Shown piece by piece: positions 1-35,685 of a stretch of 64,000 nt of DNA. The DNA comes from Minisyncoccota bacterium. GTDB taxonomy: Bacteria > Patescibacteriota > Minisyncoccia > Phycocordibacterales > PALSA-1337. The position numbers and the translations under genes were made by a program. Numbering within the stretch: position 1 is the stretch's first letter; each line of letters starts with the position of its first letter. The stretch lies in the NCBI GenBank assembly GCA_036517115.1, contig DATDYB010000005.1, forward strand, positions 18,970 through 82,969. The letters are read 5' to 3'. Under the pieces are notes generated by a model that was not told where the DNA came from, searched no databases, and saw only the letters and a program-made list of their open reading frames with translations.

Positions 1-618
1 TAAGGTCAATCGATATCCTGCCTCACCCTTATTCTTGTTCACATACCGGCCGATCTTGAAAATATCGGGATTCTTCCAAAAATAAAAAGTAACGTGCTCG
101 CGGTGTGAGGAGCTCGTGGCCTCTTTCCATGCTTTTTCAAGGGCCTCAAATGAAAAAACTTCCGTATCCATGCCGTCCGGATAGGTATAGGGCTCGAGAT
201 TATTCGATGCGTAGTCAAAATCGTGTTCTTTGTAGAACCTGATCGTCTCGTCAATAACCACCGGATCAATGAACGGGCAGTCTGAAGTCATCCTGACGAT
301 AGTGTCCCCCGTCTTCGCGCCGAACGCTTTCGCCGCGCGATAGTGGCGATCAAGTACGTCATGCTCACTGCCAACGAAACAAGGTTGATGTATCGTCTCA
401 TTGTATTCGATCAATGCTCGATCATTGGGATTTTCCGTAGTAGCAACAATAATTTTTTCTATCTCAGAGCTTTTTCCCACCCGTTCAAGCATGCATTCAA
501 GCATGGTCTTTTGCGGTGCTATCCTAAGCAATACTTTGCCGGGCAGTCTCGTGGAAGAGAGCCTTGCTTGGATAATGGCGATGGTTTTTATTTTTCGCAT
601 CATGATGTTATGAGCCAT
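1..618 (-). CDS. CMP-sugar (acylneuraminate/pseudaminate-type) cytidylyltransferase, C-terminus beyond window start
   Basis: I translated the minus strand by hand (the ORF track misses it because it runs off the edge): MAHNIMMRKIKTIAIIQARLSSTRLPGKVL...DCPFIDP. The IIQARxxSxRLPGK motif is typical of the CMP-NeuAc/KDO synthetase (SpsF/NeuA/PseF) family. The likely start is the Met of MRKIKTIAII (about 600), overlapping the stop of the upstream gene. Confidence 0.75.
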   Translation of the reverse strand, partial: MAHNIMMRKIKTIAIIQARLSSTRLPGKVLLRIAPQKTMLECMLERVGKSSEIEKIIVATTENPNDRALIEYNETIHQPCFVGSEHDVLDRHYRAAKAFGAKTGDTIVRMTSDCPFIDPVVIDETIRFYKEHDFDYASNNLEPYTYPDGMDTEVFSFEALEKAWKEATSSSHREHVTFYFWKNPDIFKIGRYVNKNKGEAGYRLTL

Positions 619-1645
619 TAATCAGGCCCTGCAGCGTATCGAGCTTCTTCTTATGACGTCTCATATCTTTAACGAGCGAGCCTTTGCCGTCCGCGATGCC
701 CACAATGCGGGAAGGCTTTTCAATGTTATCGACAATAATTTCTCCGTATTTGCCTAAAAGACCCATGGAGACCAATGTGATACCTTCATCCTCCATGACC
801 TTCCTGCCCATTGATTGGCCATAATGCAACTTAGTCTCAAGCAGAGCGGAAAAAATATGCTTCTGCGCGATGGAGACATCGGCGCGATATACCGTGTAGG
901 CATTGTTCTTTATCACACTCACAGTAAAACAGCCTTTACCCACGTCAATAAGGATCGCGGGACGACTCTTGTCCATTCCCGTAAGCGTCCGTTCATTAAC
1001 GATACCTTTTTTATCAGCGCACGCAATGACGATAGAAGCGCCATCACATGCGTCCCGAGCACTTTCAACTGCCGTGATCGAAGAAAGAGTATCCTTAGAT
1101 TTTATTTCATTCAAACCGTCGACAATCACTTTAAGTTTCTTTTGATCGGGACGATACGCCCGAATAGCCGCGCCGCGCTCAACAAACTTGAGAGCGATTT
1201 TTGAACCGAGGTTGCCGCAACCCACTACGGCGATGGTCGCACCCCCAATGTCGGCAACAAGCTGTCCGAGGATATAATCAACAGCTTCCATGGTCAAATC
1301 ATTGCCCTTATAAGTAATGATGTTTGATTTGAAAATCTTACTCCTGACTTCTCGTTCGATGTTGCCGGCGTCGTTGTTGCCATAATAGCGTTCTTTTATT
1401 TTTTTCTCCGCGTCTACGAAAACATAATCGACCATTCCGTCAATAATAAGGGCTACGGCGGCAGCGGCGGCTACGTCGCGCACAATTACTCCTGTGTAGA
1501 TGAGTCGTTCGGTTTCCCGGATTGGAATGAGATAATAGCGTTTATTGCCGAATGAGCCGGAAGTATTGCCCACAACGAAGGCGGTGTGTCTGCCCCGCGC
1601 GTCTTTCACGATTTTCTCTATCGCTCTGTTGATTGCTTTTTTCAT
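608..1645 (-). CDS. NAD(P)-binding Rossmann-fold protein of unknown specificity (dehydrogenase/reductase-like)
   Basis: 345 aa. Central glycine-rich dinucleotide-binding motif IAVVGCGNLGSKIALKF preceded by a ~130 aa N-terminal domain. Sits between the NeuB-like synthase and the cytidylyltransferase in one minus-strand operon. Confidence 0.4.
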   Translation of the reverse strand: MKKAINRAIEKIVKDARGRHTAFVVGNTSGSFGNKRYYLIPIRETERLIYTGVIVRDVAAAAAVALIIDGMVDYVFVDAEKKIKERYYGNNDAGNIEREVRSKIFKSNIITYKGNDLTMEAVDYILGQLVADIGGATIAVVGCGNLGSKIALKFVERGAAIRAYRPDQKKLKVIVDGLNEIKSKDTLSSITAVESARDACDGASIVIACADKKGIVNERTLTGMDKSRPAILIDVGKGCFTVSVIKNNAYTVYRADVSIAQKHIFSALLETKLHYGQSMGRKVMEDEGITLVSMGLLGKYGEIIVDNIEKPSRIVGIADGKGSLVKDMRRHKKKLDTLQGLINGS

Positions 1646-1647
1646 GA

Positions 1648-4050
1648 CTATATATGATCCCAGGTGAGTGGGTGATCCATTTTTAGGGATTTTTTAGCAT
1701 GTTTACCCACAATGATATCGATGTGTTTCGGCAATATTCCGCCACCAGGACCCTTGATCGAAAGCATGTCTGCGGTGATTTTTTCTCCCCGTTTGATGGC
1801 AACTTTGGCATAGAGGCATTTTTTGAACTTGTTGACGGCCTCAATTTCGCTTCCGACGATGCTTTTTTCACCGCGTCCCTCAATAACCGGTATAAGATTG
1901 CTCAAACGCACCAGCTCCCGCATTTCTTCCACATCTGAAGAAAGGATGTGGTCGGGACCTTCCATAAATCGATCCAGCGTAAAATGCCGTTCGATTACTT
2001 GTGCTCCCTTGGCGATGGCCACGGTGGCGACGGTCAAACCGATGGCATGATCGGAGAGGCCTACGGGCACGCTGAAAACCGTGCGGAGCGTATTCATAAC
2101 CGAAAGATTCATATCGTGCGGAGACGCGGGATATGAGGAAACGCAATGCAGGAGGATGACATTCTTGTTGCCGGTATTTCGTATCGTCTGTATCGCGTCT
2201 TCGATCTGGCCCAGGGTGGACATGCCTGTCGACACGATCATAGGTTTTCCCGTCTCGGCGACCCTTCTTATAAGGGGAAGATTTACCAGGTCCATCGAGG
2301 AAATTTTGTAAAATTTACAGCCGAGCGATTCGAGCAGCTCCACGCTCTCAAGGTCGAATGGGGTCGAGAAAATCTCTATGCCTTTTTCCTCTGCATACGT
2401 GAAAAGTTGTTCATGCTCTTTTCTGCCGAACTCCAGACGATCAAGCATCTCGTACGTCGTCTCCTCAGTATCGACAAGTTTTTCCGCGTACCTGTTACCC
2501 TTCACCTCTTTTGAAATCCGATTCGCAGCCCGATACGTCTGGAATTTCACCGCCGAACAGCCGATTTCTTTCGCACGGTCAATAAGTTCCATGGCAAGCG
2601 GTAGACTGCCGTTGTGATTGAGGCCGATTTCGGCAATAATAAATGCCGGCGCACTGGCGGACACCCTCTTCGCGCCAAGCATGACCTCTTGGTTAAACTC
2701 ATACCACTCGTCTTTTTTTACGAGCTCCCGCTCTTCCTCGGCATCCTCTGAAGTAGCGAGCCGATCGGCAAGATCAAAACCTTTGACATTTAGAATCTGA
2801 AGATCGGCATAGTGAAAATCGCCCCCCGTGCCGATACCGTAGAGCTGTTTAAATGCCGAGAGCTTGCTTCGCACCTCAACAAGTTCTTCTTCGCATTCCT
2901 TGGTAAGAAGCGGGTACACATGTGGGAGAGAGATCATCCGCGTGTCATACACTTCGTTCTTTTTCGCCAGTCCCACAGTGACAAGATCGAGCACGGCGCG
3001 GTCGATGATTTTTTTCTCGTCTGTTTTGTCCAAAGCATCCCCTTTAGTGTACGCGATTTCAAGAGTGAGCACCGTCTTATTCTTTGGAAAGCCCGCGGAG
3101 CAAAATTTCTTCTGTTCGCTCACGCGATGAAAGATGATCTCCGGTGCATCATAATAGAGAAAATTGAACGTATCGGGAATGGCCACAGCTTTTTTAAGCG
3201 CCACGAACACTAATTTCGCTCCGCGATATTTAAGATTGTTTTTTATGCCGACATGTTCCGCCATGATCGGAAACGGGATGGTCGATACTACTCTGTCCGC
3301 AGGGGAAATTGGAATCTTTTCCCCATCGTTAAACATGAGGCTCTGTATAAGCCGATCTGAATGTTCAACACCCGTAAGCGTTTTTTGAAGAACGAGTTTT
3401 CCGCCCGCTTTTTTGAATTGTTCCGCCATCCTTTCAAGAATTCTTCCCGAACCGTACTTACCAACGGCGCTCCATTGGCCCGCATGAAAATGCTCGTCCT
3501 TGGTACGAAAATTTATCCGCTTGGGCGCCCAATTAGCGGTCATTTCTCCAACCGGCACTCCCCATAATTTCTGCGGATAACGGATGAAAAACGTCTCCAT
3601 GAGCGTGGGTCCGACGAGCTCGCGCACATATTCCGAATAATTTTTCGCCTTAGCTCTTTTGGTCTCGTCGAGATGAGCCAGCTCGTACAGAATCTTTTTC
3701 CTTACTTCTTCGGGGAACTTTTTAAGCGAATCGAAGGAAAGCGGATAGTCAAAAAACTGGTCGAACCTGTCCCCTTTGACATTCTTGCCCCAGAATTCGT
3801 TTTGATGGAAAAGGTCACCATATTCTTTCTTCCATATCTCTTCGAGATTTTTGTCAGGCGTATGATAGATGTGGGGGCCGTAATCGAGATTTTTAAATTC
3901 TCCCCAGGTGAAAGAGCCGGCAAGCCCTCCCACGGTCTTTTCCTTTTCGATGACGATGGTTTTAATACCGCGCCGAGCGAGACGGAGTCCTGTGGCAAGC
4001 CCGCTCATTCCCGCTCCGAGTATATATATTGTGCGTGATTTCTTTACCAT
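1648..4050 (-). CDS. fusion protein: N-terminal FAD-dependent UDP-galactopyranose-mutase-like domain + C-terminal NeuB-family sialic/nonulosonic acid synthase domain with SAF domain
   Basis: 800 aa. N-terminus YILGAGMSGLATGLRLARRG...DYGPHIYHT...FFIRYPQKLWGVP resembles Glf/UGM flavoenzymes. C-terminus IAEIGLNHNGSLPLAMELIDRAKEIGCSAVKFQTY is the NeuB/PseI/SpsE signature, and the terminal GEKITADMLSIKGPGGGI... is SAF-like. Confidence 0.7.
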   Translation of the reverse strand: MVKKSRTIYILGAGMSGLATGLRLARRGIKTIVIEKEKTVGGLAGSFTWGEFKNLDYGPHIYHTPDKNLEEIWKKEYGDLFHQNEFWGKNVKGDRFDQFFDYPLSFDSLKKFPEEVRKKILYELAHLDETKRAKAKNYSEYVRELVGPTLMETFFIRYPQKLWGVPVGEMTANWAPKRINFRTKDEHFHAGQWSAVGKYGSGRILERMAEQFKKAGGKLVLQKTLTGVEHSDRLIQSLMFNDGEKIPISPADRVVSTIPFPIMAEHVGIKNNLKYRGAKLVFVALKKAVAIPDTFNFLYYDAPEIIFHRVSEQKKFCSAGFPKNKTVLTLEIAYTKGDALDKTDEKKIIDRAVLDLVTVGLAKKNEVYDTRMISLPHVYPLLTKECEEELVEVRSKLSAFKQLYGIGTGGDFHYADLQILNVKGFDLADRLATSEDAEEERELVKKDEWYEFNQEVMLGAKRVSASAPAFIIAEIGLNHNGSLPLAMELIDRAKEIGCSAVKFQTYRAANRISKEVKGNRYAEKLVDTEETTYEMLDRLEFGRKEHEQLFTYAEEKGIEIFSTPFDLESVELLESLGCKFYKISSMDLVNLPLIRRVAETGKPMIVSTGMSTLGQIEDAIQTIRNTGNKNVILLHCVSSYPASPHDMNLSVMNTLRTVFSVPVGLSDHAIGLTVATVAIAKGAQVIERHFTLDRFMEGPDHILSSDVEEMRELVRLSNLIPVIEGRGEKSIVGSEIEAVNKFKKCLYAKVAIKRGEKITADMLSIKGPGGGILPKHIDIIVGKHAKKSLKMDHPLTWDHI

Positions 4051-4811
4051 ATCGTAAATCCGCCATCCACAAGAATATTCTGTCCCGTAATATATGACGC
4101 GTCAGAAGAGATTAAAAAGCAGATCGTGCCGGTCAAATCGGAAACACCAGCCATTCTTCCCAAAGGCGTTTTGTATTCGTATTTTTCGACGAATGAAGGA
4201 TCCTGACCACTGTATACCCCGCCTGGACTGATCGAATTGACTTGAATGTTATGCTTGGCGAGATAGGCTGCCAGGTATTTGGTAACGTGAATGATCCCCG
4301 CTTTAGTCGCTCCGTATATTTCAGAGCTATTTCTGCCCGAGTCCCCGTAAATCCTAAAATCCGGCGTCGTTATTCCGTAGATGGATCCGAAATTGACAAT
4401 CCGACCGCTTTTTCTTTTGGCCATTCCTTCCGAAAAAACTTGGGAGGAGAGGATGGTGCCTTTGAGATTGATGTCGATGACGTGGTCGAGCTCTTTCTCG
4501 GTCCGCTTTTCAAACGGCGTGTATACACCGACCCCGGCGCAATTTACCAACGCGTCAAGGGGACGCGTCAAACCGCGAGAAACCTTCCTAAGCGACGCGA
4601 GAGCAGTGACATCCATTTCCTTGTACTCGTAATCGGTCAGTTTTTTTTCTTGGAGTTCTTCTTTAAATTCCTTGGGAAACGTGCTCGTGGCATCGGTGAT
4701 ATAGACAAACGCTCCGCTTTCGAGAAGCGCCGTGACCAGGCCTCTGCCGATGTGGCCGCAGGCGCCCGTAATCAGCACGGTTTTCCCTTTCAAATCATAG
4801 GAATTTGACAT
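4044..4811 (-). CDS. SDR-family short-chain dehydrogenase/reductase
   Basis: 255 aa. TGACGHIGRG glycine-rich motif near the N-terminus and YGATKAG (YxxxK) catalytic motif. Confidence 0.8.
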   Translation of the reverse strand: MSNSYDLKGKTVLITGACGHIGRGLVTALLESGAFVYITDATSTFPKEFKEELQEKKLTDYEYKEMDVTALASLRKVSRGLTRPLDALVNCAGVGVYTPFEKRTEKELDHVIDINLKGTILSSQVFSEGMAKRKSGRIVNFGSIYGITTPDFRIYGDSGRNSSEIYGATKAGIIHVTKYLAAYLAKHNIQVNSISPGGVYSGQDPSFVEKYEYKTPLGRMAGVSDLTGTICFLISSDASYITGQNILVDGGFTIW

Positions 4812-5115: not shown

Positions 5116-6945
5116 CTATTTGATATTGTGCGTATTCCAGAAATATGAATTTTTATCCCGAAGCAGGTCCGCCGGAACGCCTGTCTCAATAATTTTTCCC
5201 TTATCAAGGACGACGATCCTGTCGGTGTTCATGATGGTACTAAGCCGGTGAGCAATGATAATGACGGTAAGCTTGCCGCGCAGATCCTCGATGACCTTTT
5301 GAATTTTTGACTCCGACTCGTTGTCGAGCGCGCTCGTCGCTTCGTCAAAGACCAGTATAGCCGGATTCCGAGCAAGCGCCCGAGCGATGACGATGCGTTG
5401 CCGTTGCCCTTGGGAAAGGGTGACGCCTCGTTCGCCGATCACAGTGTCATATCCTTGCGGCAAATCGGCGACGAAATCATCGATGTATGCCGCTCGCGCC
5501 GAATGTTTGATCCTCTCGTCGGTAATGGCTTCATCGTAGAAACGGATATTACTCGCGATGGTATCGTTCATCAGAAAAATATCCTGCGGCACATAACCGA
5601 TATTTTTTCTCCACAAAGAAAGATCGATTCCGTCCGCGGTACTGCCGTCAACCATGAGCCGACCTGCCTGGGGAGTAAAGAGACGCAACAAGATGTCGAC
5701 GAGTGTCGTCTTGCCTCCGCCGGATGGGCCGATGAGACCGATCATTTCGCCTCGTTTGACTGAAAATGTCACGTCGTCGAGCACTTTCCGCGAATCATCA
5801 TAGTCAAAACAAAGGTGATCGAACCGAATCTCTTTCTCGAACCTGAACAGAGCTTTTCCGTCCCTGTTTTCGGCCGCTTTTTTCGAGTTTTCGGTGAATT
5901 CCAAAATGGCCTTGAAGTATGGATAAGAATCATTGATGACGTGGATATGCCGTTGAAACTTCTGCACATAGAGAAAAATTTGCTGGATGAGATACACGGT
6001 CGCCGCCATAGCGGCCAGATTGAAATTCGGCGTCTTGTAGGCAAAAGCGAATATACCCATCACGAATATGAGTCCGAGGGGCTGCATCAAGGAAGGCGGT
6101 AACACTTTCAAAAGGGAGGCCTTGATCTTATAGAGCTTGAGGGTGTTGAAATACGAATAATCTTTGGCGATGATATTCTCTTCCACCCCCATGGACTTCA
6201 ACGTTTTCATACCGAGAATATTTTCGCTGATATGGTGCGCGATGTCACGATTCACCGCTTCCGCTTGTCTCGCGATCCGGCGAGTTCGAACGAGCAGCGG
6301 TTTAGCCACGAAAAGAAACAACACTCCGACCATGATGGTAAGCACGGTGATTGGAAAAGAAATATTGATCGCGACCGCGCTGTACATGATGAGGCTTGCG
6401 ACGACGACGATCAGCGCGCCGAAGTTGTTAAGCAGTAACTCGCAATACTCAATGTTGGTGAGCACCATGGTGTTCAAATGCCCGAGCCGCTCTCGGAGGA
6501 GGTACGGCCAGCCGGCTTTCATGGTGTGGCGAAGGACCCTCCGTCGTGTCTTTTCCGTATAATCCGCGGTGATTTTTATGGAGATATAATCCGCGAACAC
6601 CACCATGAACGTTTTCATCACGAACAACAAGACAACGAGGATAAGCAGATACTTGAGGCGGAATTCGATATTAAAGTATTCGAACGCCTGAACAATGGTT
6701 TTTGAAATCACGTCGTCGCCACTGTTGCCGTTTCCACTGATGAATGAAAAAATTGGAATAAACGCATTAATACCGATGCCCTCTAAGAGCGCGCTAAAAA
6801 ACCCGGCGACCGCGAGCAGCGTGATTTTCCATTTATACTCTCCGAAGCCTTTATGGAAGGACTTTAAAAATGCGAAAAAATTGGTGCGCTTGAAATATGC
6901 GATCAACATGATGTCGATAATACCCCGCTTAATCTTATTTGTCAA
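5116..6945 (-). CDS. ABC transporter, fused permease/ATP-binding (MsbA/exporter type)
   Basis: 609 aa. N-terminal multi-TM region, Walker A GPSGGGKTT, ABC signature LSQGQRQRIVIARAL and Walker B ILVFDEATSALD. Confidence 0.85.
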   Translation of the reverse strand: MTNKIKRGIIDIMLIAYFKRTNFFAFLKSFHKGFGEYKWKITLLAVAGFFSALLEGIGINAFIPIFSFISGNGNSGDDVISKTIVQAFEYFNIEFRLKYLLILVVLLFVMKTFMVVFADYISIKITADYTEKTRRRVLRHTMKAGWPYLLRERLGHLNTMVLTNIEYCELLLNNFGALIVVVASLIMYSAVAINISFPITVLTIMVGVLFLFVAKPLLVRTRRIARQAEAVNRDIAHHISENILGMKTLKSMGVEENIIAKDYSYFNTLKLYKIKASLLKVLPPSLMQPLGLIFVMGIFAFAYKTPNFNLAAMAATVYLIQQIFLYVQKFQRHIHVINDSYPYFKAILEFTENSKKAAENRDGKALFRFEKEIRFDHLCFDYDDSRKVLDDVTFSVKRGEMIGLIGPSGGGKTTLVDILLRLFTPQAGRLMVDGSTADGIDLSLWRKNIGYVPQDIFLMNDTIASNIRFYDEAITDERIKHSARAAYIDDFVADLPQGYDTVIGERGVTLSQGQRQRIVIARALARNPAILVFDEATSALDNESESKIQKVIEDLRGKLTVIIIAHRLSTIMNTDRIVVLDKGKIIETGVPADLLRDKNSYFWNTHNIK

Positions 6946-6983: not shown

Positions 6984-7976
6984 CTAGCGAACGCTCATCC
7001 TGCTTACGTTATCCCCCATGAGCGTCTCGTGAATATGCCGCCATTTCGCGTCATAAGGGAAATCGTACGCGCTCAACATTTCGTTTTTCTCCCGACGGTG
7101 CTCGGCATTCGAACTGAAAAAATGGGTATCGCTGAACGATTGCATGAATTCAAAATAATCGGCGATAATATTCTTTGATGTTTCTACCAGGGAGTGAGTG
7201 TTGATGAACAGTTCGATATGTCCGTATCGTGGCAATCCTGATTTCAGAAAACGCTGATAGTTTTTGAAACTGACAAAAATGATATATTTCCCGCCCTCAT
7301 CGAGGGATCGCAATTCCTCCAAAGACTCGAGGTACACCAGACCGTATCCTTTAGCCGATCGCGAATTCGATAGATATGTCATGGCTACGGAAAGCGTTTC
7401 AAACAAGTCAATAATAAAATATCTCGAGGTGTTGTTATTGAGCAGAAAAAATTCGCACATACCTCCATACCCTCCCCCGATCTCGCAAACATTCTTAATA
7501 GTGTCGGAAGCGGCGTGTGAAGCTATGAAATTGTTGAATATGGCATATTTTCTGATGTTAGCGTTAAAAAAGAATATGCTTGTCCCTTCCCGTTCCTTTC
7601 TTCGGAAAGAGTAATAGAACTCTGAATGGACGGGGTCAAACGCCGGAAACCGGAGACCCGAGTCGCATAAGAGATCGAAATCTCTGCGGAAGGCGGATGC
7701 TTGCTTTTTCTCCAGCAGCGATATTTTTGGCCATAGATATTTTTTTAAAAAGAATCCGACATGCAAAGTATCGTACGGGTAGGGCCTCGGTCTAAGGTTT
7801 TTTTCAGGCGGTTCAATAAGCCCTGCGCGAAAACTATTGTTATAAAAATGGAGCAGATCGGCAAGATCATGTCTGTCCGCTTGACGCGGATCCCACGTGC
7901 CAGTGTTGCTGAGATCCAGTTCGCCATCATATTTTTTTTCTATGAACGCATGAACGATGTCGGCAGTAATTTTCAT
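6984..7976 (-). CDS. hypothetical protein, possible class I SAM-dependent (sugar O-)methyltransferase
   Basis: 330 aa. VCEIGGGYGGMCEFF resembles methyltransferase motif I. Weak call. Confidence 0.35.
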   Translation of the reverse strand: MKITADIVHAFIEKKYDGELDLSNTGTWDPRQADRHDLADLLHFYNNSFRAGLIEPPEKNLRPRPYPYDTLHVGFFLKKYLWPKISLLEKKQASAFRRDFDLLCDSGLRFPAFDPVHSEFYYSFRRKEREGTSIFFFNANIRKYAIFNNFIASHAASDTIKNVCEIGGGYGGMCEFFLLNNNTSRYFIIDLFETLSVAMTYLSNSRSAKGYGLVYLESLEELRSLDEGGKYIIFVSFKNYQRFLKSGLPRYGHIELFINTHSLVETSKNIIADYFEFMQSFSDTHFFSSNAEHRREKNEMLSAYDFPYDAKWRHIHETLMGDNVSRMSVR

Positions 7977-8135: not shown

Positions 8136-9659
8136 TTGCATATGAAAATATGCTTCTTTTTACAGAGACGCTTCGCGTCGATCGGACACGCGCTCGCGTG
8201 CAACCTGAAAGAGCGTCATGGCATCAAAGATTTCTGCGCCTATGTCAGTATGCGAGAGAGCTATGAATTTCTGACCAACCAGACGGACATCGCCTACACC
8301 TCACTCCTCTCCGACGAAGATATTCACAAAAAAATGAAAGACGAAAAACTCGATATGGAGTATCTCAAGAACCTCGAACGAGAATATGGAAACCCCAATC
8401 TGTGGCCGTATCTTTTCATCGACCGAATCGTCATGCACGGCCAGCTTATCCGCGAATACCCACACGACCGGCCGCTCTACACCGAGGAAGAAATGCTTCG
8501 ACTTCTCCAAGTTACCGCCAAGGAGATTATCGGCTTTCTCGATCGGGAGAAACCGGACGTGCTCGTTATCTCCGTAGTGGCTTCCCTTGGAAGCTCACTC
8601 CTCTATTTCATCGCTCAAAAGAAAGGCATAAAAACCATTAACCTTGAACAAACAAGGATCGGCAATCGCATCGCTCTTTCGGAGAGTTATAAAAATTTCA
8701 CCTGGGCGACCAAACGCGCTCGCAATAGAGAAGTGATCTTCGCGCCGTCAGTTATGAAAGACGCCCGCGCGTACATAGAACGGTTCCGCGCCAAACCGAC
8801 CGCATACAACTCGGTATACGATCCCGAAAAGAATCAGGTCAACCGCCGCTCGCAACTGCGATTTCTCCGCCCCGCCAATCTAGCATGGAGCATACTCTGG
8901 CACGCCAAGGAACTGTATCGCGATATCCGAAAAAAAAATCGCGATTTCGACGATGTGCGAATATGGTGGCTCCTGTGGGACAAAGTCAAACGCAAGGCAA
9001 GGACGATGCGCGGATATAACGACCTCTACAGCAGTGTTGATTGGAATAAGCCGTTCGCCTTTTATCCACTACATGTTGATCCTGAAATGGCCACCATGCT
9101 GCTCGCTCCGTGCTACACTAATCAGCCGGAGCTCATCCGCCAGATCGCTAGGGCGCTCCCTGTCGGCTACACGCTCTATGTTAAAGAGCATGTGGTGATG
9201 TCAGGATATCGGCCACGCTCCTATTACAGAGATATCGTCAAAATTCCAAACGTAAAACTGGTGCATCCGGCAGTGCGGGGATTTGATCTCGCCAAGGCGG
9301 CGAACATCGTTGTTACGATTTCAGGCACGGCCGGTTTCGAGGCCGTGATACTCGGCAACCCAACAATCACCTTCGGCGAAATATTTTATAATGACCTCTC
9401 ATTCGTCAAGCGGATCCGAAGCATCGAAGAACTTCCTTTCGTCATACGAGATCAGCTGAATCATTTCAAATGCGATGAAGAGGAGCTGACGCGGTATGTC
9501 GCGGCGCTTTTTGAAGAGTCCGTTGATGTTGACTATATGGACTTATGGCTCAACGCGAAATCAGATGAGGAGATCAGGCGCAATGCGGGAATAACGCGGT
9601 TGGCCGATTTATTGGCTAAGAAAATACTTGCGGTGACGGACAATACAACTAAATTATGA
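8136..9659 (+). CDS. Capsule_synth-family (KpsS/KpsC-like) polysaccharide biosynthesis protein, putative ulosonic/nonulosonic acid transferase
   Basis: 507 aa. C-terminal region ...LYVKEHVVMSGYRP...IVVTISGTAGFEAVILGNPTITFGEIFY matches the KpsS/KpsC/LpsZ pattern (KEHP...T.nST.G.EAl.lGkPv.t.G...Y). Confidence 0.5.
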   Translation: MHMKICFFLQRRFASIGHALACNLKERHGIKDFCAYVSMRESYEFLTNQTDIAYTSLLSDEDIHKKMKDEKLDMEYLKNLEREYGNPNLWPYLFIDRIVMHGQLIREYPHDRPLYTEEEMLRLLQVTAKEIIGFLDREKPDVLVISVVASLGSSLLYFIAQKKGIKTINLEQTRIGNRIALSESYKNFTWATKRARNREVIFAPSVMKDARAYIERFRAKPTAYNSVYDPEKNQVNRRSQLRFLRPANLAWSILWHAKELYRDIRKKNRDFDDVRIWWLLWDKVKRKARTMRGYNDLYSSVDWNKPFAFYPLHVDPEMATMLLAPCYTNQPELIRQIARALPVGYTLYVKEHVVMSGYRPRSYYRDIVKIPNVKLVHPAVRGFDLAKAANIVVTISGTAGFEAVILGNPTITFGEIFYNDLSFVKRIRSIEELPFVIRDQLNHFKCDEEELTRYVAALFEESVDVDYMDLWLNAKSDEEIRRNAGITRLADLLAKKILAVTDNTTKL

Positions 9660-10898: not shown

Positions 10899-12032
10899 AT
10901 GTCAAAAGTGGCTCTCATTAGCGGTTCAGCGGGTTTAATTGGCTCTGAGGCAGCCCGATTTTTCGCATCTAAAGGATTTCTCATTGTCGGTATCGACAAT
11001 GATATGCGCGCATATTTTTTTGGTAAGGAAGCGAGTACAGATTGGAATCGGGTGCGTGTTGAAAAAAAACTTGGTAAACAATACCTCCATTACAATGTGG
11101 ATATTCGAGACAACACTGCCCTCGAAAAAATTTTCAAAAAACATCAATTTAACATCATCATTCATACCGCTGCACAACCTTCCCACGATTGGGCAATGAA
11201 GGAACCTTTAACCGACTTCACGGTGAATGCTCTTGGTACTCTCCATATGCTCGAACATATGCGCAAATATTCACCCAAAGCCACCTTTATCTTTACCTCG
11301 ACCAATAAGGTGTACGGCGATCTGCCAAATGAGCTACCACTCATCGAAGGTGAGCAGCGTTTCGAGATCGACAAGAACCATTCATATCATAAGCATGGTA
11401 TCGACGAAACAATGAGTATCGATAACTCTATTCATAGTATTTTTGGGGCATCTAAGATAGCAGCGGACATCTTAGTGCAGGAGTATGGAAAATATTTTAA
11501 ATTAAATACTGGCGTGTTTCGAGGAGGCTGTCTCACCGGACCCTCACATAGCGGTACAACACTCCATGGATTCTTATCATATCTAGTAAAATGCATTGCA
11601 ATAGGTAAAAAATATACGATTTTTGGCTACAAGGGTAAACAAGTGCGTGATAACATCCACGCCTTTGACCTTATCAATATGTTCTGGCACTACCACCAGA
11701 AACCACGCAAGGGCGAAGTTTACAATGCTGGCGGCGGTAGACATTCAAACATTTCGATGAAGGAGGCGATTAAAAAAATTGAAAAAATATTAAGGAAAAA
11801 AGCTATTGTTGAATACCATGACAAGCCGCGCACAGGTGATCATATCTGGTATATTTCAGATGTCAGAAAATTTAAAGAGCATTATCCGAAATGGTATTAT
11901 AGCTATTCGATCGACGATATACTCGCTGAACTCTGTAAAGCGTATACGGTCAAGTCGCCAAAGCGGAAAACTTCCACTGGTTTAAGTGAGCGCAAGAGGC
12001 GTAGATCGAAGGGTCGTGTGGTGACAAAATAA
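10899..12032 (+). CDS. NAD-dependent epimerase/dehydratase family protein
   Basis: 377 aa. N-terminal [22 protein letters not shown] Rossmann motif and YGASKIAAD catalytic YxxxK. The last ~40 codons overlap the convergent gene 11903-13663. Confidence 0.75.
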
Positions 12033-13663
12033 TCTATCCTGTATTTTTTGAGCTCCTCACCGAAATCGTTTTTTATGAACATTTTGTATCGCTGTAGGAG
12101 TTCTTCGATCCGCATCGTTGACTGCGGATCGCGCTCTCGTCTGAAGAGATGGTTCCAGTCGGTGAAAAAATACTCGCGTACATCCACTTCATGTGATTCG
12201 AGGTATTCCCGCGCTCCGAGAGCAGTCACTCCCTCAAGCTTCATTTTGACCAAAAAGTTATGATAAAGTCTTTCTTCAGGAGGTACGGCGCCGAGATAGC
12301 CTGAAAGATAAACGTTAGAGCGCGTAAATGCGGGTACGAGCCTCATGAACTCTTCCTTCGGCTCGTCCGCAAGAACCACAGAGTCTTTGGGGGCATGAAG
12401 TGAGAGGTAGTCGAGCACCGGCGTATAGTCCTGCATTGCTCTGAAATGACCCATGGAATAGCTGTAGCTTCGCACACTCGCTATTCCATAGAAAAGACAT
12501 GCTCCGATCACGAGTGCCGAAGAAAGGTACAGTAACCAGGGTTTTTTGTGAATCATTCTAAAGTACACGACCGAGAGTACAATGTATGAAATCGGAATAG
12601 TGTATTGGACGAAATGATAGGGCCATATTGTTCTTCCGGTAATCAATTGCTGACTGAACACAACAATAGAAGTAGCGGCGAGCGCCAAAGAAAAAACAAT
12701 CCATTTTTCTTCCAATATTTTTTGCACCGTGCTTTTCCGATACAGCGTGACCAGCCCGATGATGAAAAGTACGATCGTGAGTGTTGCCACTTTGTTAATA
12801 ATCGGCGCGTGCGTGAGGATGAGGCCGTTCATTACCGCGGCGCGTGCGTCCTCTCCCGCTTTCGCCATGCCGAGCACATAGACTCCATCGACCACAACTA
12901 TGGACAGGACGGTAATCAGGAAGTATCGGAGTGTTAGCCACTCCTTGCGAATAAGTACATACACGATAAGGAGACAGAGGACGGTGAGCGCGATGGCCCA
13001 GGCGAAAATATAGCCGATACATGCTCCGGCGAGCAATCCGGCACCGATCGCGATAGGTACGGATGGCTTTTTAAAAAGCTTCCAAAGCATCAGGAGGTAT
13101 CCGAACAGAAAAAGTGCTCCGGTGATCGGGTTTACCGGTCGCGTCCACAGACTAAGCTGTGTGTCGTGGAGCGAATCGGTTACTACGGCAAGCGTTCGAT
13201 GAACATCGACAAAGTCGTACCCCAAGACCACCAGGAGGGCCGCGGAAAGTGCGGCAAGTGTTGCGATGCCACGGGACATCCCCTCCATAAGCTTACATAC
13301 CAGAAAATAGACGAGCAAGAAGAGCAGGGCTGGAAACAGGAACTTCGCCAACACGATGGCGGAAGCGAATGAAATGCCGAGCATCTTAGCCATACTGACG
13401 TAGAGGAATTCACCGATGGGCGGCACCATTGCCGGGCGATCTTTGTATTCATAGAACACAGGGGAAGCCACGGATGCGTGACCGTCGGCAATTTCTTGCA
13501 TCCGCGCCAGATAATATTCTTCGTTATTGAGATAGAAAAACGGAATGCCGCGATACTCGTTGCCGAGTGCTTGCGGAGCGAGCACTGCCGGCAGCACGCA
13601 TAGAAAGCCCGCGATGAGCGCACCGCACAGGACGGGTAAACATTGTTTAAAATTCTCTGACAT
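11903..13663 (-). CDS. polytopic membrane protein (~12 TM + C-terminal soluble domain), uncharacterized; paralog of 19623-21386
   Basis: 586 aa. Shares the N-terminal motif [13 protein letters not shown] (YY.DRMQEVADGH in the paralog), overall length and TM layout. Confidence 0.5.
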
Positions 13664-23093: not shown

Positions 23094-24086
23094 CTACCTC
23101 TGCTTTTTTGTGATCTGTTGTTGGAGTTTATACCCCTCCCCATGCTTCAAAAGCCCGAGATAGGAAGCGATTGTTGCTGTGCTTGGTTTATCATAGCACC
23201 GCGCAAACATTCTCCTCTTTGTTGTCGTTCTTAACACTCGGTGTGTGGGGAAATGCACCCAGCCGAGGAAGTCCACGCCAGAGGCAAGGGTTTTTATGAA
23301 TACTTTGTCAGGGTGAAGTGACAATTTCAATCGTTCTGAAAGAAATGTGCCGATCTTCACTATCAGATCTTCTAGGTATGCTTTACTGTGGTGCAGAATG
23401 ACGAAGTCATCGGCATAACGAATGTAGTACTTCACTTTCTGTGTATGTTTCACCCACTGATCGAACTCGTTCATGTAGACATTGACTAGGAGTTGGGAGG
23501 TGAGGTTGCCGAGAGGGAGACCAACTCCGAGAGTAGCACTATGGAAACTCTCGATGATATTCTGAAGAAGCCGAAGGATGTCGCTGTCGGATATGTGTTT
23601 TTCGAGAATTGAGAGCAATATCGGCTGATCGATAGAGGCGAAGAACTTGCGGATGTCGCATTTTAATACGAAGCATGTCCGATAACCACAATCCTCCACC
23701 CATGTCGAAAATGACGTAAACCTTCGGAGTGCTTTATGCGTCCCCTTACCCAACCTGCATGAATATGAATCATAGATAAATATTTGGTTAAAAAATGGAT
23801 ATAGCGCACGGAACACTGCGTGATGAACTATTCTGTCTCTCACACTTGCCTTATGGATGTCTCTCGGCTTCGGATCATTTATTTTGAAATGTCCGTATCC
23901 GCCATGTTGATAACTTCTTGATGATAGATCTTGTTGTAATGACATAAGATTCGGCATGAGACGGAGGCCGAACTCTTGAACGTCCGCTCTCTTCGTTTTT
24001 CCTTTTAAAAAAATTCTCCACGAGGTAAGTAGATTTTCCAAAGAGATGATATTCTTATACTGATGAGTAAAATAAACTTGATGCAT
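23094..24086 (-). CDS. diversity-generating retroelement reverse transcriptase
   Basis: N-terminus YKNIISLENLLTSWRIFLKGKTKRADVQEF...KINDPKPRDIHKASVRDRIVHHAV. Motif GLPLGNLTSQLLVNVY (the [ILV]GxxxSQ variant characteristic of DGR RTs, instead of QGxxxSP). YADDFVILHH catalytic motif. ~330 aa. The ORF track starts at GTG 24152; the in-frame ATG at 24086 (MHQVYF...) avoids overlap with avd. Confidence 0.85.
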   Translation of the reverse strand: MHQVYFTHQYKNIISLENLLTSWRIFLKGKTKRADVQEFGLRLMPNLMSLQQDLSSRSYQHGGYGHFKINDPKPRDIHKASVRDRIVHHAVFRALYPFFNQIFIYDSYSCRLGKGTHKALRRFTSFSTWVEDCGYRTCFVLKCDIRKFFASIDQPILLSILEKHISDSDILRLLQNIIESFHSATLGVGLPLGNLTSQLLVNVYMNEFDQWVKHTQKVKYYIRYADDFVILHHSKAYLEDLIVKIGTFLSERLKLSLHPDKVFIKTLASGVDFLGWVHFPTHRVLRTTTKRRMFARCYDKPSTATIASYLGLLKHGEGYKLQQQITKKQR

Positions 24087-24117
24087 TCCATAAATAGTAC
24101 CCACCCCCCGCACGGTT

Positions 24118-24465
24118 TTGCCAGTGCTTGAGAAATTGAAAGATGGATACACATTGTGGCACAGATGTCACGAACTGATGCCAAAAACACAGCGATATTC
24201 ACTTGGCAACAGAATTGATAAATTGTTTATAGAGGCGATCGAGGCGACAGCAACGGCAGCTTTCCTTCCCCCACAAGAAAAGGTGGCGTGGGTTCGTTTA
24301 GCACTTCGAAAAACCGACGTCATACAAGTGTTATTATTGATCTGCTTAGAGACTGATTCATTCGAAGAAAAGCATTTTGTTGATGTATCGATGAAGCTTG
24401 CGGAGATTGGTAAAGATCTAGGCGGGTGGAACGGCAAACTTACAAAACAAAACTCCGGCGGATAA
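24118..24465 (+). CDS. Avd-like accessory variability determinant (four-helix-bundle protein)
   Basis: ~115 aa. ...QRYSLGNRIDKLFIEAIEA... and C-terminal ...EEKHFVDVSMKLAEIGKDLGGWNGKL, which resembles the bAvd C-terminus (..AEVGRILGSW..). TTG start in the track, and other starts are possible. Divergent from the RT. Confidence 0.65.
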   Translation: MPVLEKLKDGYTLWHRCHELMPKTQRYSLGNRIDKLFIEAIEATATAAFLPPQEKVAWVRLALRKTDVIQVLLLICLETDSFEEKHFVDVSMKLAEIGKDLGGWNGKLTKQNSGG

Positions 24466-24487
24466 ATCCTACGGAGAAATGAATAAG

Positions 24488-24869: not shown

Positions 24870-24900
24870 TGTGTAAAAACCAAAGCCAAGGGACCGAGGG

Positions 24901-25659
24901 CTAGGTTTGAGAAACCGAAGTCGAGGGCTCTTGCGGAAGGACGAAGGCGAAACCGCCATTGCCGTACCAGCTGAAGCCCGGCCCACCGTAGAAGGCGTCC
25001 AAACAGCGACCGTCATCGTCACGGCCCGCACAGAGCACGCTCGGATCGCCGTCGGAATCATTGATCGCGTCATGCATCGCTACGATGTACCAGAGACCGA
25101 GTTCTTCGAGTTCGGCATCGGTGAGAAGGTCTCGAATAAGCGGACCAACTTCCCAATGAGGTGTCTTCCACCCCCGAACCTCTGCGTCTTTGCGGATTGT
25201 TTTGGTGTACCGATCCTTGTTCTTGATCTTATTACCGGGCCGGACAGCGATGTTATACGTCACGCCGGTGGTAGGTGCGTCCGTTGCCCTCCTTAGAACA
25301 TTCTTGCCCCAGTCGGAAACGCGATAGGGCTGCCCCTTGGCATCCTTCTTTTCCTTTTCGAAATAGGTAATCCACTGTTCATTGGTACGACCGTTGGAAG
25401 TGACTTCGAAGTAAATAGTTCCTTCGGAGTCAATTACCCATTTGGAACCCGCCGGAATGGCAGGAATGACTGGCTTGATCGTTTCGCCGCTTTGATCAAT
25501 GAGTACGAGCTTGGCTTTGCCTCTTACGAGCATCGATACAGCCGTGAAGTTTTCTTCTGTCGACAACCATTCAACGTCATTGGTGTCGCCGTCGTTGCGT
25601 TTAATAGCCGTCTCCAATTTGTGACCTGCACCTTGAGTTAGTACGAACGTGCTGTTCAT
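24901..25659 (-). CDS. DGR target (variable) protein with C-terminal C-type-lectin/FGE-like variable region
   Basis: 252 aa. C-terminal ...GLWYIVAMHDAINDSDGDPSVLCAGRDDDGRCLDAFYGGPGFSWYGNGGFAFVLPQ contains the VR. No obvious signal peptide. N-terminal domain unrecognised. Confidence 0.8.
   Translation of the reverse strand: MNSTFVLTQGAGHKLETAIKRNDGDTNDVEWLSTEENFTAVSMLVRGKAKLVLIDQSGETIKPVIPAIPAGSKWVIDSEGTIYFEVTSNGRTNEQWITYFEKEKKDAKGQPYRVSDWGKNVLRRATDAPTTGVTYNIAVRPGNKIKNKDRYTKTIRKDAEVRGWKTPHWEVGPLIRDLLTDAELEELGLWYIVAMHDAINDSDGDPSVLCAGRDDDGRCLDAFYGGPGFSWYGNGGFAFVLPQEPSTSVSQT
24931..25058 (-). repeat. DGR variable repeat (VR) at the 3' end of the target gene
   Basis: Encodes ...DSDGDPSVLCAGRDDDGRCLDAFYGGPGFSWYGNGGFAFVLPQ. 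Ends 28 nt before the stop codon. Differs from the TR only at TR-adenine positions. Confidence 0.85.
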
Positions 25660-35667: not shown

Positions 35668-35685
35668 AGGCTGTATTGTAACAAA

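What the first reader, a model, noticed from the sequence alone, without database searches (positions are those of the whole stretch)
1..4050. Fusion of a UDP-galactopyranose-mutase-like flavoprotein to a NeuB-type nonulosonic acid synthase, in operon with a Rossmann protein and a CMP-sugar cytidylyltransferase
The 800-aa ORF has an N-terminal half with the dinucleotide-binding GxGxxG motif and UGM-like blocks (DYGPHIYHT; FIRYPQKLWG). Its C-terminal half carries the NeuB signature IAEIGLNHNG...AVKFQTY plus a SAF domain. NeuB-family enzymes condense PEP with a 6-carbon aminosugar to make 9-carbon ulosonic acids. I do not recognise a covalent fusion to a Glf/amine-oxidase-type flavoenzyme as standard. 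The two downstream genes (an unassigned NAD-binding protein and an SpsF/NeuA-type cytidylyltransferase) complete a make-and-activate module, suggesting a modified or novel ulosonic acid.
Basis: partly seen in the sequence, partly recalled or inferred. Interest (0 to 1): 0.65.

Follow-up and report, generated by a model that had tools for sequence, protein, structure and literature searches.

The report
Mutase-like flavoenzyme fused to NeuB synthase
One 800-residue protein joins a UDP-galactopyranose-mutase-like flavoenzyme to a sialic-acid-type (NeuB) sugar-acid synthase; it is real, is conserved in more than 70 species from ultra-small groundwater bacteria to ocean SAR11, sits in an operon that appears to make a CMP-activated sugar acid, and I found no study of it.

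Summary
Window 1648-4050 (minus strand) is one uninterrupted 800-aa ORF. Residues 1-435 are a FAD enzyme whose closest solved relatives, by sequence and by fold, are UDP-galactopyranose mutases (UGM). Residues 469-800 are a NeuB TIM barrel plus SAF domain.

It is not a frameshift artefact. The identical protein occurs on 9 independently assembled contigs. Fusions of about 795-806 aa occur in hundreds of protein clusters and in at least 72 species genomes, including CPR, Elusimicrobia, Omnitrophota, Magnetococcales, SAR11/86/116, two archaea, and cultured Arcobacter iocasae and Rheinheimera.

- **UGM half:** it keeps the His loop and all five diphosphate-binding Arg/Tyr residues.
- **NeuB half:** it keeps the metal and catalytic residues, but the N-acetyl-binding Arg314 is an invariant Gly. 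Stand-alone NeuB paralogues in the same loci keep Arg.
- **Partner:** an uncharacterised two-lobed NAD(P) protein is adjacent in 66 of 80 loci. A CTP_transf_3 cytidylyltransferase lies nearby in at least 43.
- **Missing gene:** a NeuC-type hydrolysing epimerase is almost never nearby.

Best reading (inferred): the flavin domain takes an NDP-sugar and hands the free sugar to the NeuB domain for condensation with PEP. The product is then modified and CMP-activated. The sugar is unknown.

I rate this a new variant of nonulosonic-acid biosynthesis, present in databases but uncharacterised.

The parts
1648..4050 (-). 800-aa fusion ORF (stop codon 1648-1650): UGM-like flavoenzyme, linker, NeuB barrel and SAF domain.
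   Evidence: ORF list. Pfam. 100% identical protein P0001 on 9 contigs. AF2 model with mean pLDDT 86.4.
2746..4050 (-). UGM-like FAD domain, aa 1-435. It has GxGxxG (G12/G14/G17), the His loop G58-P59-H60, and R178, Y299, R309, Y379 and Y414.
   Evidence: PDB sequence and profile hits are to UGMs. Residues were mapped onto Table 3 of PMC3624792. The residues are invariant in alignments A1 and A2. Foldseek gives TM 0.70-0.80 to UGMs.
2647..2745 (-). Inter-domain linker, aa 436-468. It is in frame with no stop codon.
   Evidence: AF2 pLDDT is below 50 for residues 436-449. The ORF is continuous.
1831..2646 (-). NeuB-type TIM barrel, aa 469-740. It has E474, K502, Q504, H668, H689 and D700.
   Evidence: Pfam NeuB E 2e-88. 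Alignment to NmNeuB 1xuu and PseI 8h2c. TM 0.84-0.88.
1651..1830 (-). SAF (antifreeze-like) domain, aa 741-800. Gly767 stands where NmNeuB has Arg314.
   Evidence: Pfam SAF. The R314A mutant 4ipi and wild-type 1xuu align G767 with R314. Gly in 75 fusion hits, Arg in canonical paralogues.
608..1645 (-). 345-aa two-lobed NAD(P)-binding protein, the most conserved partner of the fusion. Its family is uncharacterised.
   Evidence: Weak Pfam hits to F420_oxidored and NAD_binding_2. No NCBIfam hit. No PDB sequence hit. AF2 pLDDT 94.5, with only distant fold matches at TM 0.46 or less. A homologue lies within the +/-7 kb flanks, usually adjacent, in 66 of 80 loci.
1..618 (-). N-terminal 206 residues of a 260-aa SpsF/KdsB-type cytidylyltransferase (CTP_transf_3), cut by the window edge.
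   Evidence: Translation. Full gene on L001 13433-14215; Pfam CTP_transf_3 E 4e-32. PDB 6oew E 1e-33.
4044..4811 (-). 255-aa classical SDR, PtmA/PRK09186-like. It overlaps the fusion start by 7 nt.
   Evidence: Pfam adh_short. NCBIfam PRK09186 at 193 bits and FlagModPtmA at 134 bits. It abuts the fusion in about 23 loci.
5116..6945 (-). ABC exporter with fused membrane and ATPase domains, upstream of the operon. Association is looser.
   Evidence: Pfam ABC_membrane plus ABC_tran. An ABC gene lies directly upstream of the fusion in L004, L005, L014, L022, L024, L061 and L073.
8136..9659 (+). 507-aa Capsule_synth (KpsS/KpsC-like) protein. It is a candidate transferase for the CMP-activated sugar acid (inferred).
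   Evidence: Pfam PF05159 at 23.9 bits against a cutoff of 20. Homologues lie near the fusion in L006, L007, L008, L027 and L065.

Best explanation
The ORF encodes a genuine bifunctional enzyme at the centre of a pathway for a CMP-activated 3-deoxy-2-ulosonic (sialic-acid-like) sugar.

Shown:
- One polypeptide carries an intact UGM-type FAD/NDP-sugar site and an intact NeuB-type metal/PEP site.
- It is translationally coupled to a PtmA-like SDR, a novel two-lobed NAD(P) enzyme and a CTP_transf_3 cytidylyltransferase. On the parent contig a class-III aminotransferase follows.

Inferred mechanism:
1. The reduced flavin N5 of the UGM-like domain attacks C1 of an NDP-(amino/deoxy)hexose made by neighbouring genes and expels the NDP, as in UGM.
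2. The ring-opened flavin-iminium adduct does not re-close to a furanose. It is hydrolysed instead, releasing the free, open-chain aldose.
3. This would fill the role that NeuC, LegG or PseG plays in known pathways.
4. The sugar passes to the NeuB domain, which condenses it with PEP.
5. Because the N-acetyl-binding Arg314 is replaced by an invariant Gly, the aldose differs at C2 from the substrates of known NeuB and PseI enzymes.
6. The Rossmann partner, plus lineage-specific SDR/aminotransferase pairs, then modifies the ulosonic acid.
7. The cytidylyltransferase makes the CMP-sugar, and a KpsS/C-like transferase adds it to a surface glycan.
For: **The fusion is real and under selection.**
- The identical protein is on 9 contigs.
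- 624 homologues were found; the best 120 are almost all 783-841 aa with the same Pfam set.
- 78 genome loci span many phyla and 2 archaea.
- About 25 clusters at the 50% identity level are full-length fusions.

**The UGM-type site is kept.**
- AfUGM diphosphate ligands R182/Y317/R327/Y419/Y453 correspond to R178/Y299/R309/Y379/Y414.
- KpUGM H60, F152/Y155 and W160 correspond to H60, F155/Y158 and W163.
- All are invariant or nearly so in the family (Table 3 of PMC3624792).
- Fold TM is 0.70-0.80 to UGMs.

**The NeuB site is kept.** E474, K502, Q504, H668, H689 and D700 are invariant.

**Arg314 is lost.** It is Gly in 75 fusion hits (Ala in 2). Five canonical stand-alone NeuB paralogues in the same loci have Arg.

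**Synteny.**
- A Rossmann homologue lies within the flanks, usually adjacent, in 66 of 80 loci; CTP_transf_3 lies within +/-7 kb in at least 43.
- The same triad appears in Pfam-annotated contigs of three other lineages.
- One 1141-aa protein fuses all three.

**The usual NDP-removing enzyme is missing.**
- A NeuC-type Epimerase_2 was found near the fusion in 1 of ~78 loci.
- It was not among the families matched by 4 or more of 141 flanking ORFs.
- NDP-sugar enzymes (4,6-dehydratases, DegT in 23 loci, nucleotidyltransferases) are common neighbours.

**Relatives act in NDP-sugar contexts.** One is flanked by GT2 genes. Another is fused to RmlD.
Against: - No activity was measured. Steps 1-7 of the mechanism are inference.
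- Every residue needed for ordinary mutase chemistry is conserved, so a plain pyranose-furanose mutase cannot be excluded.
- The window's own operon carries a 368-aa protein with a faint Epimerase_2 resemblance (E 1e-3, below cutoff). It could be the NDP-removing enzyme.
- The Arcobacter locus has a strong Epimerase_2 gene.
- About 11 loci carry a second, apparently active NeuB-like domain fused to the cytidylyltransferase. There the fused NeuB may not be the only, or the final, synthase.
- A missing neighbour gene may sit elsewhere in the genome.
- The KpUGM-based alignment of the C-terminal two-thirds is weak (-1.2 and 10 bits). The mapping there rests mainly on the single long alignments to the eukaryotic UGMs.
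- The triple fusion is a singleton on a 4.3-kb contig and could be a merge error.
Confidence: 0.4

Rival explanations
1. The N-terminal domain is an ordinary NDP-sugar pyranose-to-furanose mutase. It supplies a furanose donor for the same glycan. The fusion to NeuB only ensures co-expression, and the two active sites do not exchange intermediates.
For: All UGM catalytic and diphosphate-binding residues are conserved. The nearest stand-alone relative (P0267) lies between GT2 genes in a polysaccharide cluster without NeuB, a typical mutase setting.
Against: Across very distant phyla the fusion keeps a fixed length, a fixed domain order and tight synteny with the Rossmann and CMP-transferase genes. 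That is more than co-expression would require. The TIGR00031 UGM equivalog score is 50 bits against a cutoff of 304. KpUGM sugar or uracil contacts differ: N270 is Y299, Y185 is F188, and the N84 position is ambiguous (K89 or N90). No furanosyltransferase partner is conserved.
Confidence: 0.2
2. The flavin domain works as a redox enzyme (amine- or alcohol-oxidase-like). It makes the aldehyde substrate for the NeuB domain, or it oxidises the product.
For: The Pfam Amino_oxidase score (60.7 bits) is higher than the GLF score (27.1 bits). A class-III aminotransferase and dehydrogenases are in the operon.
Against: PF01593 is a broad fold model. Desaturase and amine-oxidase PDB entries match only the first ~60 residues, whereas UGMs match along the domain. 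The UGM-specific diphosphate-binding Arg/Tyr set and the His loop are invariant.
Confidence: 0.12
3. The flavin domain acts after the synthase, on the ulosonic acid or its CMP ester. One possibility is contracting the ring to a furanose form.
For: The synthase and the flavin domain are in one protein, and a CMP-transferase is a conserved neighbour. From my own knowledge (not checked here), furanosidic Kdo exists in some capsules and its origin is unknown.
Against: The conserved residues match a diphosphate-binding site, but CMP-sugars carry a monophosphate. Attack by flavin N5 on a quaternary ketosidic C2 is sterically unfavourable (inference).
Confidence: 0.08
4. The fusion is an artefact: two adjacent genes merged by a sequencing or assembly error.
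For: None was found.
Against: The identical ORF is on 9 contigs from independent assemblies. Homologues of the same length occur in 78 genome loci, including complete genomes of Arcobacter iocasae and Pelagibacterales CODY6.
Confidence: 0.01

Closest known systems
NeuB / LegI / PseI nonulosonic-acid synthases (PF03102 plus SAF; for example N. meningitidis NeuB 1xuu, C. jejuni PseI 8h2c)
   Same: TIM barrel plus SAF domain. 31-36% identity and TM 0.84-0.88. The metal-binding His pair and the E/K/Q/D catalytic residues are conserved. A CMP-transferase lies nearby.
   Different: It carries a 435-residue N-terminal flavoenzyme. Arg314 (the N-acetyl contact) is an invariant Gly. It scores below the NCBIfam equivalog cutoffs for NeuB_NnaB (363 against 399.65) and PseI (298 against 340). 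Usually no NeuC/LegG/PseG gene lies alongside.
UDP-galactopyranose mutase (Glf/UGM; K. pneumoniae 3gf4, T. cruzi 4dsg, A. fumigatus 3ute)
   Same: Three-domain FAD fold. The His loop, the uracil-stacking aromatics and all five diphosphate-binding Arg/Tyr residues are conserved.
   Different: Only about 18-20% identity. It is far below the TIGR00031 cutoff (50 against 304 bits). The KpUGM FAD-pyrophosphate ligand R343 is replaced by T408, and KpUGM N270 corresponds to Y299, as in eukaryotic UGMs. It is covalently joined to a C-C bond-forming synthase. Its closest models are the uncharacterised PRK07208 'hypothetical protein' families (167 bits).
NeuC / LegG hydrolysing 2-epimerases and the PseG UDP-sugar hydrolase (the NDP-removing step of known nonulosonic-acid pathways)
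   Same: The proposed role is the same: free the aldose from its nucleotide just before condensation with PEP (inference).
   Different: The fold and the chemistry are unrelated: a GT-B fold against a flavoenzyme using covalent N5 catalysis. This is a functional analogy only and is untested.
Other fused sialic-acid enzymes: mammalian GNE (epimerase plus kinase) and the Leptospira NeuB plus C-terminal phosphatase-like domain (PMC3438082)
   Same: They are precedents for welding an 'adapter' enzyme of the pathway onto a core nonulosonic-acid enzyme.
   Different: The partner domains differ and sit at different positions. None is a flavoenzyme.

Membership tests
NeuB-type nonulosonic-acid synthase (PF03102 plus PF08666) | NeuB TIM-barrel domain scoring above the Pfam gathering score, followed by a SAF domain. 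| tested here: met
   NeuB 296.6 bits (cutoff 22.1). SAF 42.9 bits (cutoff 21). TM 0.84-0.88 to PseI and NmNeuB.
NeuB-type nonulosonic-acid synthase (PF03102 plus PF08666) | Metal-binding His pair (NmNeuB H215/H236) and catalytic E25, K53, Q55 and D247. | tested here: met
   H668/H689, E474, K502, Q504 and D700 align to these residues. They are invariant in 50 family members.
NeuB-type nonulosonic-acid synthase (PF03102 plus PF08666) | SAF-domain arginine (NmNeuB Arg314) that contacts the 2-N-acetyl group of the sugar. | tested here: not met
   It aligns to G767. Gly in 75 fusion hits and Ala in 2. Arg in canonical paralogues of the same loci.
NeuB-type nonulosonic-acid synthase (PF03102 plus PF08666) | Equivalog-level score for Neu5Ac/Leg synthase (TIGR03569) or Pse synthase (TIGR03586). 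| tested here: not met
   363.1 against 399.65 bits, and 298.4 against 340.25 bits.
NeuB-type nonulosonic-acid synthase (PF03102 plus PF08666) | Condensation of PEP with an aldose to give a 3-deoxy-2-ulosonic acid. | not testable with these tools
   Needs an enzyme assay.
UDP-galactopyranose mutase family (PF03275 / TIGR00031) | FAD-binding GxGxxG motif and the histidine loop next to the isoalloxazine ring. | tested here: met
   G12/G14/G17 and G58-P59-H60 are invariant and align to KpUGM H60 and AfUGM H63 (Table 3 of PMC3624792).
UDP-galactopyranose mutase family (PF03275 / TIGR00031) | Arg/Tyr set that binds the diphosphate of the NDP-sugar (AfUGM R182, Y317, R327, Y419, Y453; KpUGM R174, Y185, R280, Y314). 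| tested here: met
   R178, Y299, R309, Y379 and Y414 align to the AfUGM set and are invariant. Only KpUGM Y185 differs (F188).
UDP-galactopyranose mutase family (PF03275 / TIGR00031) | Three-domain UGM fold. | tested here: met
   Foldseek gives 4dsg TM 0.75, 5eqf 0.80 and AfUGM 0.70-0.72, at E 1e-21 to 1e-25.
UDP-galactopyranose mutase family (PF03275 / TIGR00031) | Family-model score above the curated cutoff. | tested here: inconclusive
   Pfam GLF 27.1 against 26.3 (just passes). TIGR00031 50.4 against 303.75 (fails). So it belongs to the superfamily but is not an equivalog.
UDP-galactopyranose mutase family (PF03275 / TIGR00031) | Redox-neutral interconversion of pyranose and furanose forms through a flavin-N5 adduct. 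| not testable with these tools
   Needs an assay with reduced enzyme and NDP-sugars.
CMP-ulosonic-acid synthetase (CTP_transf_3, KdsB/NeuA/SpsF type): the downstream gene | CTP_transf_3 domain above the cutoff. | tested here: met
   112.3 bits against 22.6 for the full gene on L001. PDB 6oew E 1e-33. KdsB equivalog cutoffs are not reached.
Shikimate/amino-acid-dehydrogenase-like two-lobed NAD(P) enzymes: the Rossmann partner | N-terminal substrate lobe plus a GxGxxG Rossmann lobe, with recognisable family membership. | tested here: inconclusive
   G142-x-G144-x-x-G147 is invariant. Only weak Pfam hits to F420_oxidored and Shikimate_DH. No NCBIfam or PDB sequence hit. Best fold matches reach TM 0.46 or less: OTCase, DpaA, MtdA, PGDH.

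The most novel reading that the evidence does not exclude
The UGM fold has been recruited for a new job. Covalent flavin-N5 catalysis strips the nucleotide from an NDP-sugar and delivers the ring-opened aldose directly to a fused NeuB domain for C-C bond formation. Together with a new family of two-lobed NAD(P) enzymes, this would define a fourth route to nonulosonic (or related ulosonic) acids, independent of NeuC/LegG/PseG. The product would be a sugar not yet described, displayed by SAR11, SAR86, CPR bacteria and magnetotactic bacteria.
Probability: 0.3. Interest if true: 0.8.

Novelty: new variant of a known kind. Interest (0 to 1): 0.6.

Why it matters
Nonulosonic acids shape how microbes are seen by phages, predators and immune systems. 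Only three biosynthetic logics are known (Neu, Leg, Pse).

This family occurs in some of the most abundant marine bacteria (SAR11, SAR86, SAR116) and in the barely studied CPR. It pairs the synthase with a flavoenzyme and an unknown dehydrogenase in place of the usual nucleotide-removing enzyme. It therefore probably marks an undescribed surface sugar, and possibly a new use of non-redox flavin chemistry.

Two cultured carriers, Arcobacter iocasae KX21116 and Rheinheimera sp. YQF-1, make the question directly testable.

Tried and rejected
- **Frameshift or merged genes:** rejected.
- **Generic amine oxidase or protoporphyrinogen oxidase:** rejected as the closest family. Those match only the dinucleotide-binding start, or match with a poorer E-value and TM than UGMs.
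- **Canonical Neu5Ac, Leg or Pse synthase:** not supported. Equivalog cutoffs are missed and Arg314 is lost.
- **Literature:** eight full-text searches found no paper on this architecture. They covered NeuB with mutase or fusion, nonulosonic acid with Patescibacteria, Pelagibacter with NeuB, PRK07208, and protoporphyrinogen oxidase with sialic acid synthase. The Leptospira 'NeuB fusion' paper describes a different, C-terminal phosphatase-like fusion. The SugarBase preprint does not mention the fusion.
- **Rossmann partner:** no PDB sequence hit, no NCBIfam hit, and only distant folds. Its reaction could not be assigned.
- **The 368-aa gene on the parent contig:** only a sub-threshold Epimerase_2/CapG resemblance.
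- **Triple fusion P0253:** a singleton, so I treat it as weak support only.

Full report
**1. What is in the sequence**

On the minus strand, window 1648..4050 is a single 800-codon ORF with an ATG start. Pfam places these domains:
- NAD_binding_8 at residues 10-74.
- Amino_oxidase at 15-359 (E 2e-16).
- GLF (UGM) at 154-337, marginal at 27.1 bits against a cutoff of 26.3.
- NeuB at 489-727 (E 2e-88).
- SAF at 745-800.

The flanking genes are tightly packed:
- A PtmA-like SDR (4044..4811) overlaps the ORF's start by 7 nt.
- A 345-aa Rossmann gene (608..1645) starts 2 nt after the fusion's stop codon.
- A cytidylyltransferase gene (1..618) overlaps the Rossmann gene by 11 nt and is cut by the window edge.

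The parent contig (L001) shows the rest of the operon: the full 260-aa CTP_transf_3 gene, a class-III aminotransferase (440 aa), a 368-aa protein without a Pfam family, and a Wzy_C/TPR membrane protein.

**2. The fusion is not an artefact**

- The identical 800-aa protein was read on 9 contigs from independent assemblies. NCBI labels it 'FAD-dependent oxidoreductase [Candidatus Paceibacterota bacterium]'.
- A search of 5.8 billion protein clusters returned 624 homologues. The best 120 are almost all 783-841 aa, cover 97-100% of the query at 46-73% identity, and carry the same Pfam set.
- A scan of one genome per species found 78 loci. They include CPR lineages, Elusimicrobia, Nitrospirae, Omnitrophota, Planctomycetes, Zetaproteobacteria, Magnetococcales, SAR11, SAR116 and SAR86, a Nitrososphaerales and a Methanosarcinales archaeon, the complete genomes of Arcobacter iocasae KX21116 and Pelagibacterales CODY6, and Rheinheimera sp. 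YQF-1.
- In a library clustered at 50% identity, about 25 clusters are full-length fusions.
- The AF2 model has a mean pLDDT of 86.4. It shows two well-folded halves joined by a low-confidence linker at residues 436-449.

**3. The N-terminal half**

Every strong match in the PDB is a UDP-galactopyranose mutase.
- The single sequence gives E 2.5e-12.
- A profile of 31 family members gives E 2e-23 for K. pneumoniae UGM and 3e-23 for T. cruzi UGM, the latter in one alignment across residues 4-411.
- Desaturases, amine oxidases and protoporphyrinogen oxidases match only the first ~60 residues.
- Foldseek gives UGMs TM 0.70-0.80.

I mapped residues using the ligand table of a UGM review (PMC3624792, Table 3).
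- The five residues that hold the diphosphate in A. fumigatus UGM (R182, Y317, R327, Y419, Y453) align with R178, Y299, R309, Y379 and Y414.
- The His-loop histidine (KpUGM H60) aligns with H60.
- The uracil-stacking and nearby aromatics F152, Y155 and W160 align with F155, Y158 and W163.
- All are invariant or nearly invariant in the family.
- The differences are KpUGM Y185 (F188 here), N270 (Y299, as in eukaryotic UGMs) and the FAD-pyrophosphate ligand R343 (T408).

The domain therefore belongs to the UGM superfamily with its NDP-sugar site intact, but it is not a UGM equivalog (TIGR00031 at 50 bits against a cutoff of 304). Its best NCBIfam models are uncharacterised 'PRK07208 hypothetical protein' families.

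Stand-alone relatives of 420-485 aa at 27-32% identity exist.
- The nearest lies between GT2 glycosyltransferase genes in a polysaccharide cluster without NeuB.
- Others are fused to RmlD or to a membrane domain.
- This is consistent with a family that works on NDP-sugars.

**4. The C-terminal half**

It aligns over its whole length with Leptospira NeuB (6ncs), C. jejuni PseI (8h2c) and N. meningitidis NeuB (1xuu) at E 1e-47 to 1e-51, with TM 0.84-0.88.
- The two metal-binding histidines (H668, H689) and E474, K502, Q504 and D700 are invariant.
- One feature is not kept. NmNeuB Arg314 aligns with Gly767. The position is identified unambiguously because PDB 4ipi is the R314A mutant.
- This Gly is present in all 75 high-scoring fusion hits (Ala in two others). 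Five canonical stand-alone NeuB paralogues in the same loci have Arg. PseI also has Arg.
- The domain scores below the equivalog cutoffs for Neu5Ac/Leg synthase and Pse synthase.
- I infer an active PEP-condensing enzyme whose sugar substrate differs, at least around C2, from those of characterised NeuB and PseI.

**5. Conserved partners**

A tblastn search of the window's operon proteins against 80 loci gave these counts:
- The Rossmann protein is within the +/-7 kb flanks in 66 loci. In most it lies directly after the fusion, sometimes directly before it. Eight of the 14 loci without it are contigs that end at the fusion.
- CTP_transf_3 is present in at least 43.
- A PtmA-like SDR abuts the fusion in about 23.
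- A class-III aminotransferase is present in about 20.
- An ABC exporter is present in about 30.

Pfam-annotated contigs from three distant lineages show the same order: fusion, Rossmann, CTP_transf_3. The accessory genes differ: SDR plus Aminotran_3, or DegT plus GFO_IDH_MocA. A Pfam census of 141 flanking ORFs from 29 loci agrees.

The Rossmann protein belongs to a family annotated only as 'hypothetical' or 'NAD(P)-binding'.
- It has no NCBIfam or PDB sequence match.
- Its model is very confident (pLDDT 94.5). It resembles two-lobed enzymes only distantly, at TM 0.46 or less: OTCase, dipicolinate synthase A, MtdA and D-2-hydroxyacid dehydrogenases.
- One 1141-aa metagenomic protein joins the UGM-like, NeuB/SAF and Rossmann parts in a single chain. 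It is a singleton, so this is weak support.

**6. How it probably works**

Shown:
- Two intact active sites in one chain.
- An operon with a cytidylyltransferase.
- In the window, a KpsS/C-like Capsule_synth protein (8136..9659), a sugar O-methyltransferase (6984..7976) and an ABC exporter close by.

Inferred:
- Known nonulosonic-acid routes build the hexose on a nucleotide and must remove the nucleotide before condensation, using NeuC, LegG or PseG.
- A NeuC-type Epimerase_2 gene was found near the fusion in only one of ~78 loci (Arcobacter). It was not among the common neighbour families.
- NDP-sugar dehydratases, DegT aminotransferases and nucleotidyltransferases are frequent neighbours.
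- UGM chemistry already expels UDP and opens the sugar ring as a flavin iminium. Hydrolysis of that adduct would give exactly the open-chain aldehyde that NeuB uses.
- I therefore propose that the flavin domain unmasks an NDP-sugar for the NeuB domain. The Rossmann enzyme and lineage-specific dehydrogenase/aminotransferase pairs then tailor the ulosonic acid. The cytidylyltransferase activates it.

I put this at about 0.4. That the protein is a genuine bifunctional enzyme of a CMP-ulosonic-acid pathway I put at about 0.85.

**7. What argues against it, and the rivals**

- Complete conservation of the mutase residues leaves an ordinary pyranose-furanose mutase possible (about 0.2).
- A redox role (about 0.12) or action on the product or its CMP ester (about 0.08) cannot be excluded.
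- The window's own operon has a 368-aa protein with a faint, sub-threshold Epimerase_2 resemblance.
- In about 11 loci the cytidylyltransferase is fused to a second NeuB-like domain that keeps the catalytic residues, followed by an AsnB-like amidotransferase. In those lineages the pathway may hold two condensations, or the fused NeuB may have another role.

**8. Novelty**

The architecture is in the databases under generic names. Eight full-text searches found no description of it. The known Leptospira NeuB fusion is a different one. I file it as a new variant of nonulosonic-acid biosynthesis with an uncharacterised flavoenzyme step and an uncharacterised dehydrogenase partner. It is experimentally tractable in two cultured carriers.

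**9. Context and side observations**

The whole window is a glycan-biosynthesis island of a Paceibacterota genome. It holds many glycosyltransferases, methyltransferases, NDP-sugar enzymes and GT-C-like membrane proteins. It has no tRNA or Rfam match. Inside the island sits a diversity-generating retroelement.

Noticed in passing
window 23094-25659 (minus strand): A diversity-generating retroelement. The reverse transcriptase is at 23094..24152 (Pfam RVT_1, E 3e-21). The template repeat is at about 24488-24615. The 128-nt variable repeat is at 24931-25058, in the 3' end of a 252-aa target ORF (24901..25659). The repeats are 88% identical, and every mismatch falls on a template adenine.
   Followed up: yes
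L025:10515-12272, L038:10438-12222, L069:10472-12220 (also unfused in L022 and L039): In about 11 loci the gene after the Rossmann partner is a second fusion of about 590 aa: a NeuB-like domain plus CTP_transf_3. The NeuB-like domain keeps its catalytic residues. An AsnB-like amidotransferase of about 640 aa follows. These modules therefore hold two NeuB-type domains.
   Followed up: partly
protein P0253 (1141 aa, one 4.3-kb ENA contig): A triple fusion of UGM-like, NeuB/SAF and the Rossmann partner. Its C-terminal residues 875-1129 align to window Rossmann residues 73-324 (E 6e-22). It is a singleton, so it may be a merge error.
   Followed up: partly
proteins P0369 (770 aa) and P0336 (837 aa): Relatives of the UGM-like domain occur in other fusions: RmlD (dTDP-4-dehydrorhamnose reductase) plus UGM-like, and UGM-like plus an LPG_synthase_TM membrane domain.
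   Followed up: no
window 8136-9659 (+) and 6984-7976 (-): A KpsS/KpsC-like Capsule_synth protein (507 aa) and a NanM-like putative sugar O-methyltransferase (330 aa) lie next to the operon. They are candidates for transferring and methylating the sugar acid. The Capsule_synth homologue recurs near the fusion in five CPR loci.
   Followed up: partly
window 11903-13663 (-) and 19623-21386 (-): Two proteins of 586 and 587 aa, hydrophobic along much of their length and probably membrane proteins, have no Pfam family. They are paralogues of each other (24% identity over the full length, E 8e-16). They may be novel glycan polymerase- or GT-C-like proteins.
   Followed up: partly
window 14383-19626 (-): A separate sugar module: a split transketolase pair (17828-19626), an SDR, a GT2, a nucleotidyltransferase and a 4,6-dehydratase.
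   Followed up: no
window 32457-39205 (-) and 47484-49529 (-): Two PMT/GT-C-like membrane glycosyltransferases flank two methyltransferases and an asparagine-synthase-type amidotransferase. Further on lies a 681-aa protein resembling a type IV secretion coupling protein (TraG/TrwB-like).
   Followed up: no
L001:15614-16720 (parent contig, beyond the window start): A 368-aa protein at the end of the operon has only a sub-threshold resemblance to UDP-GlcNAc 2-epimerases (Pfam Epimerase_2 E 1e-3; CapG E 0.8). Homologues follow the cytidylyltransferase in L004, L023 and L061. It could be an alternative nucleotide-removing enzyme.
   Followed up: partly
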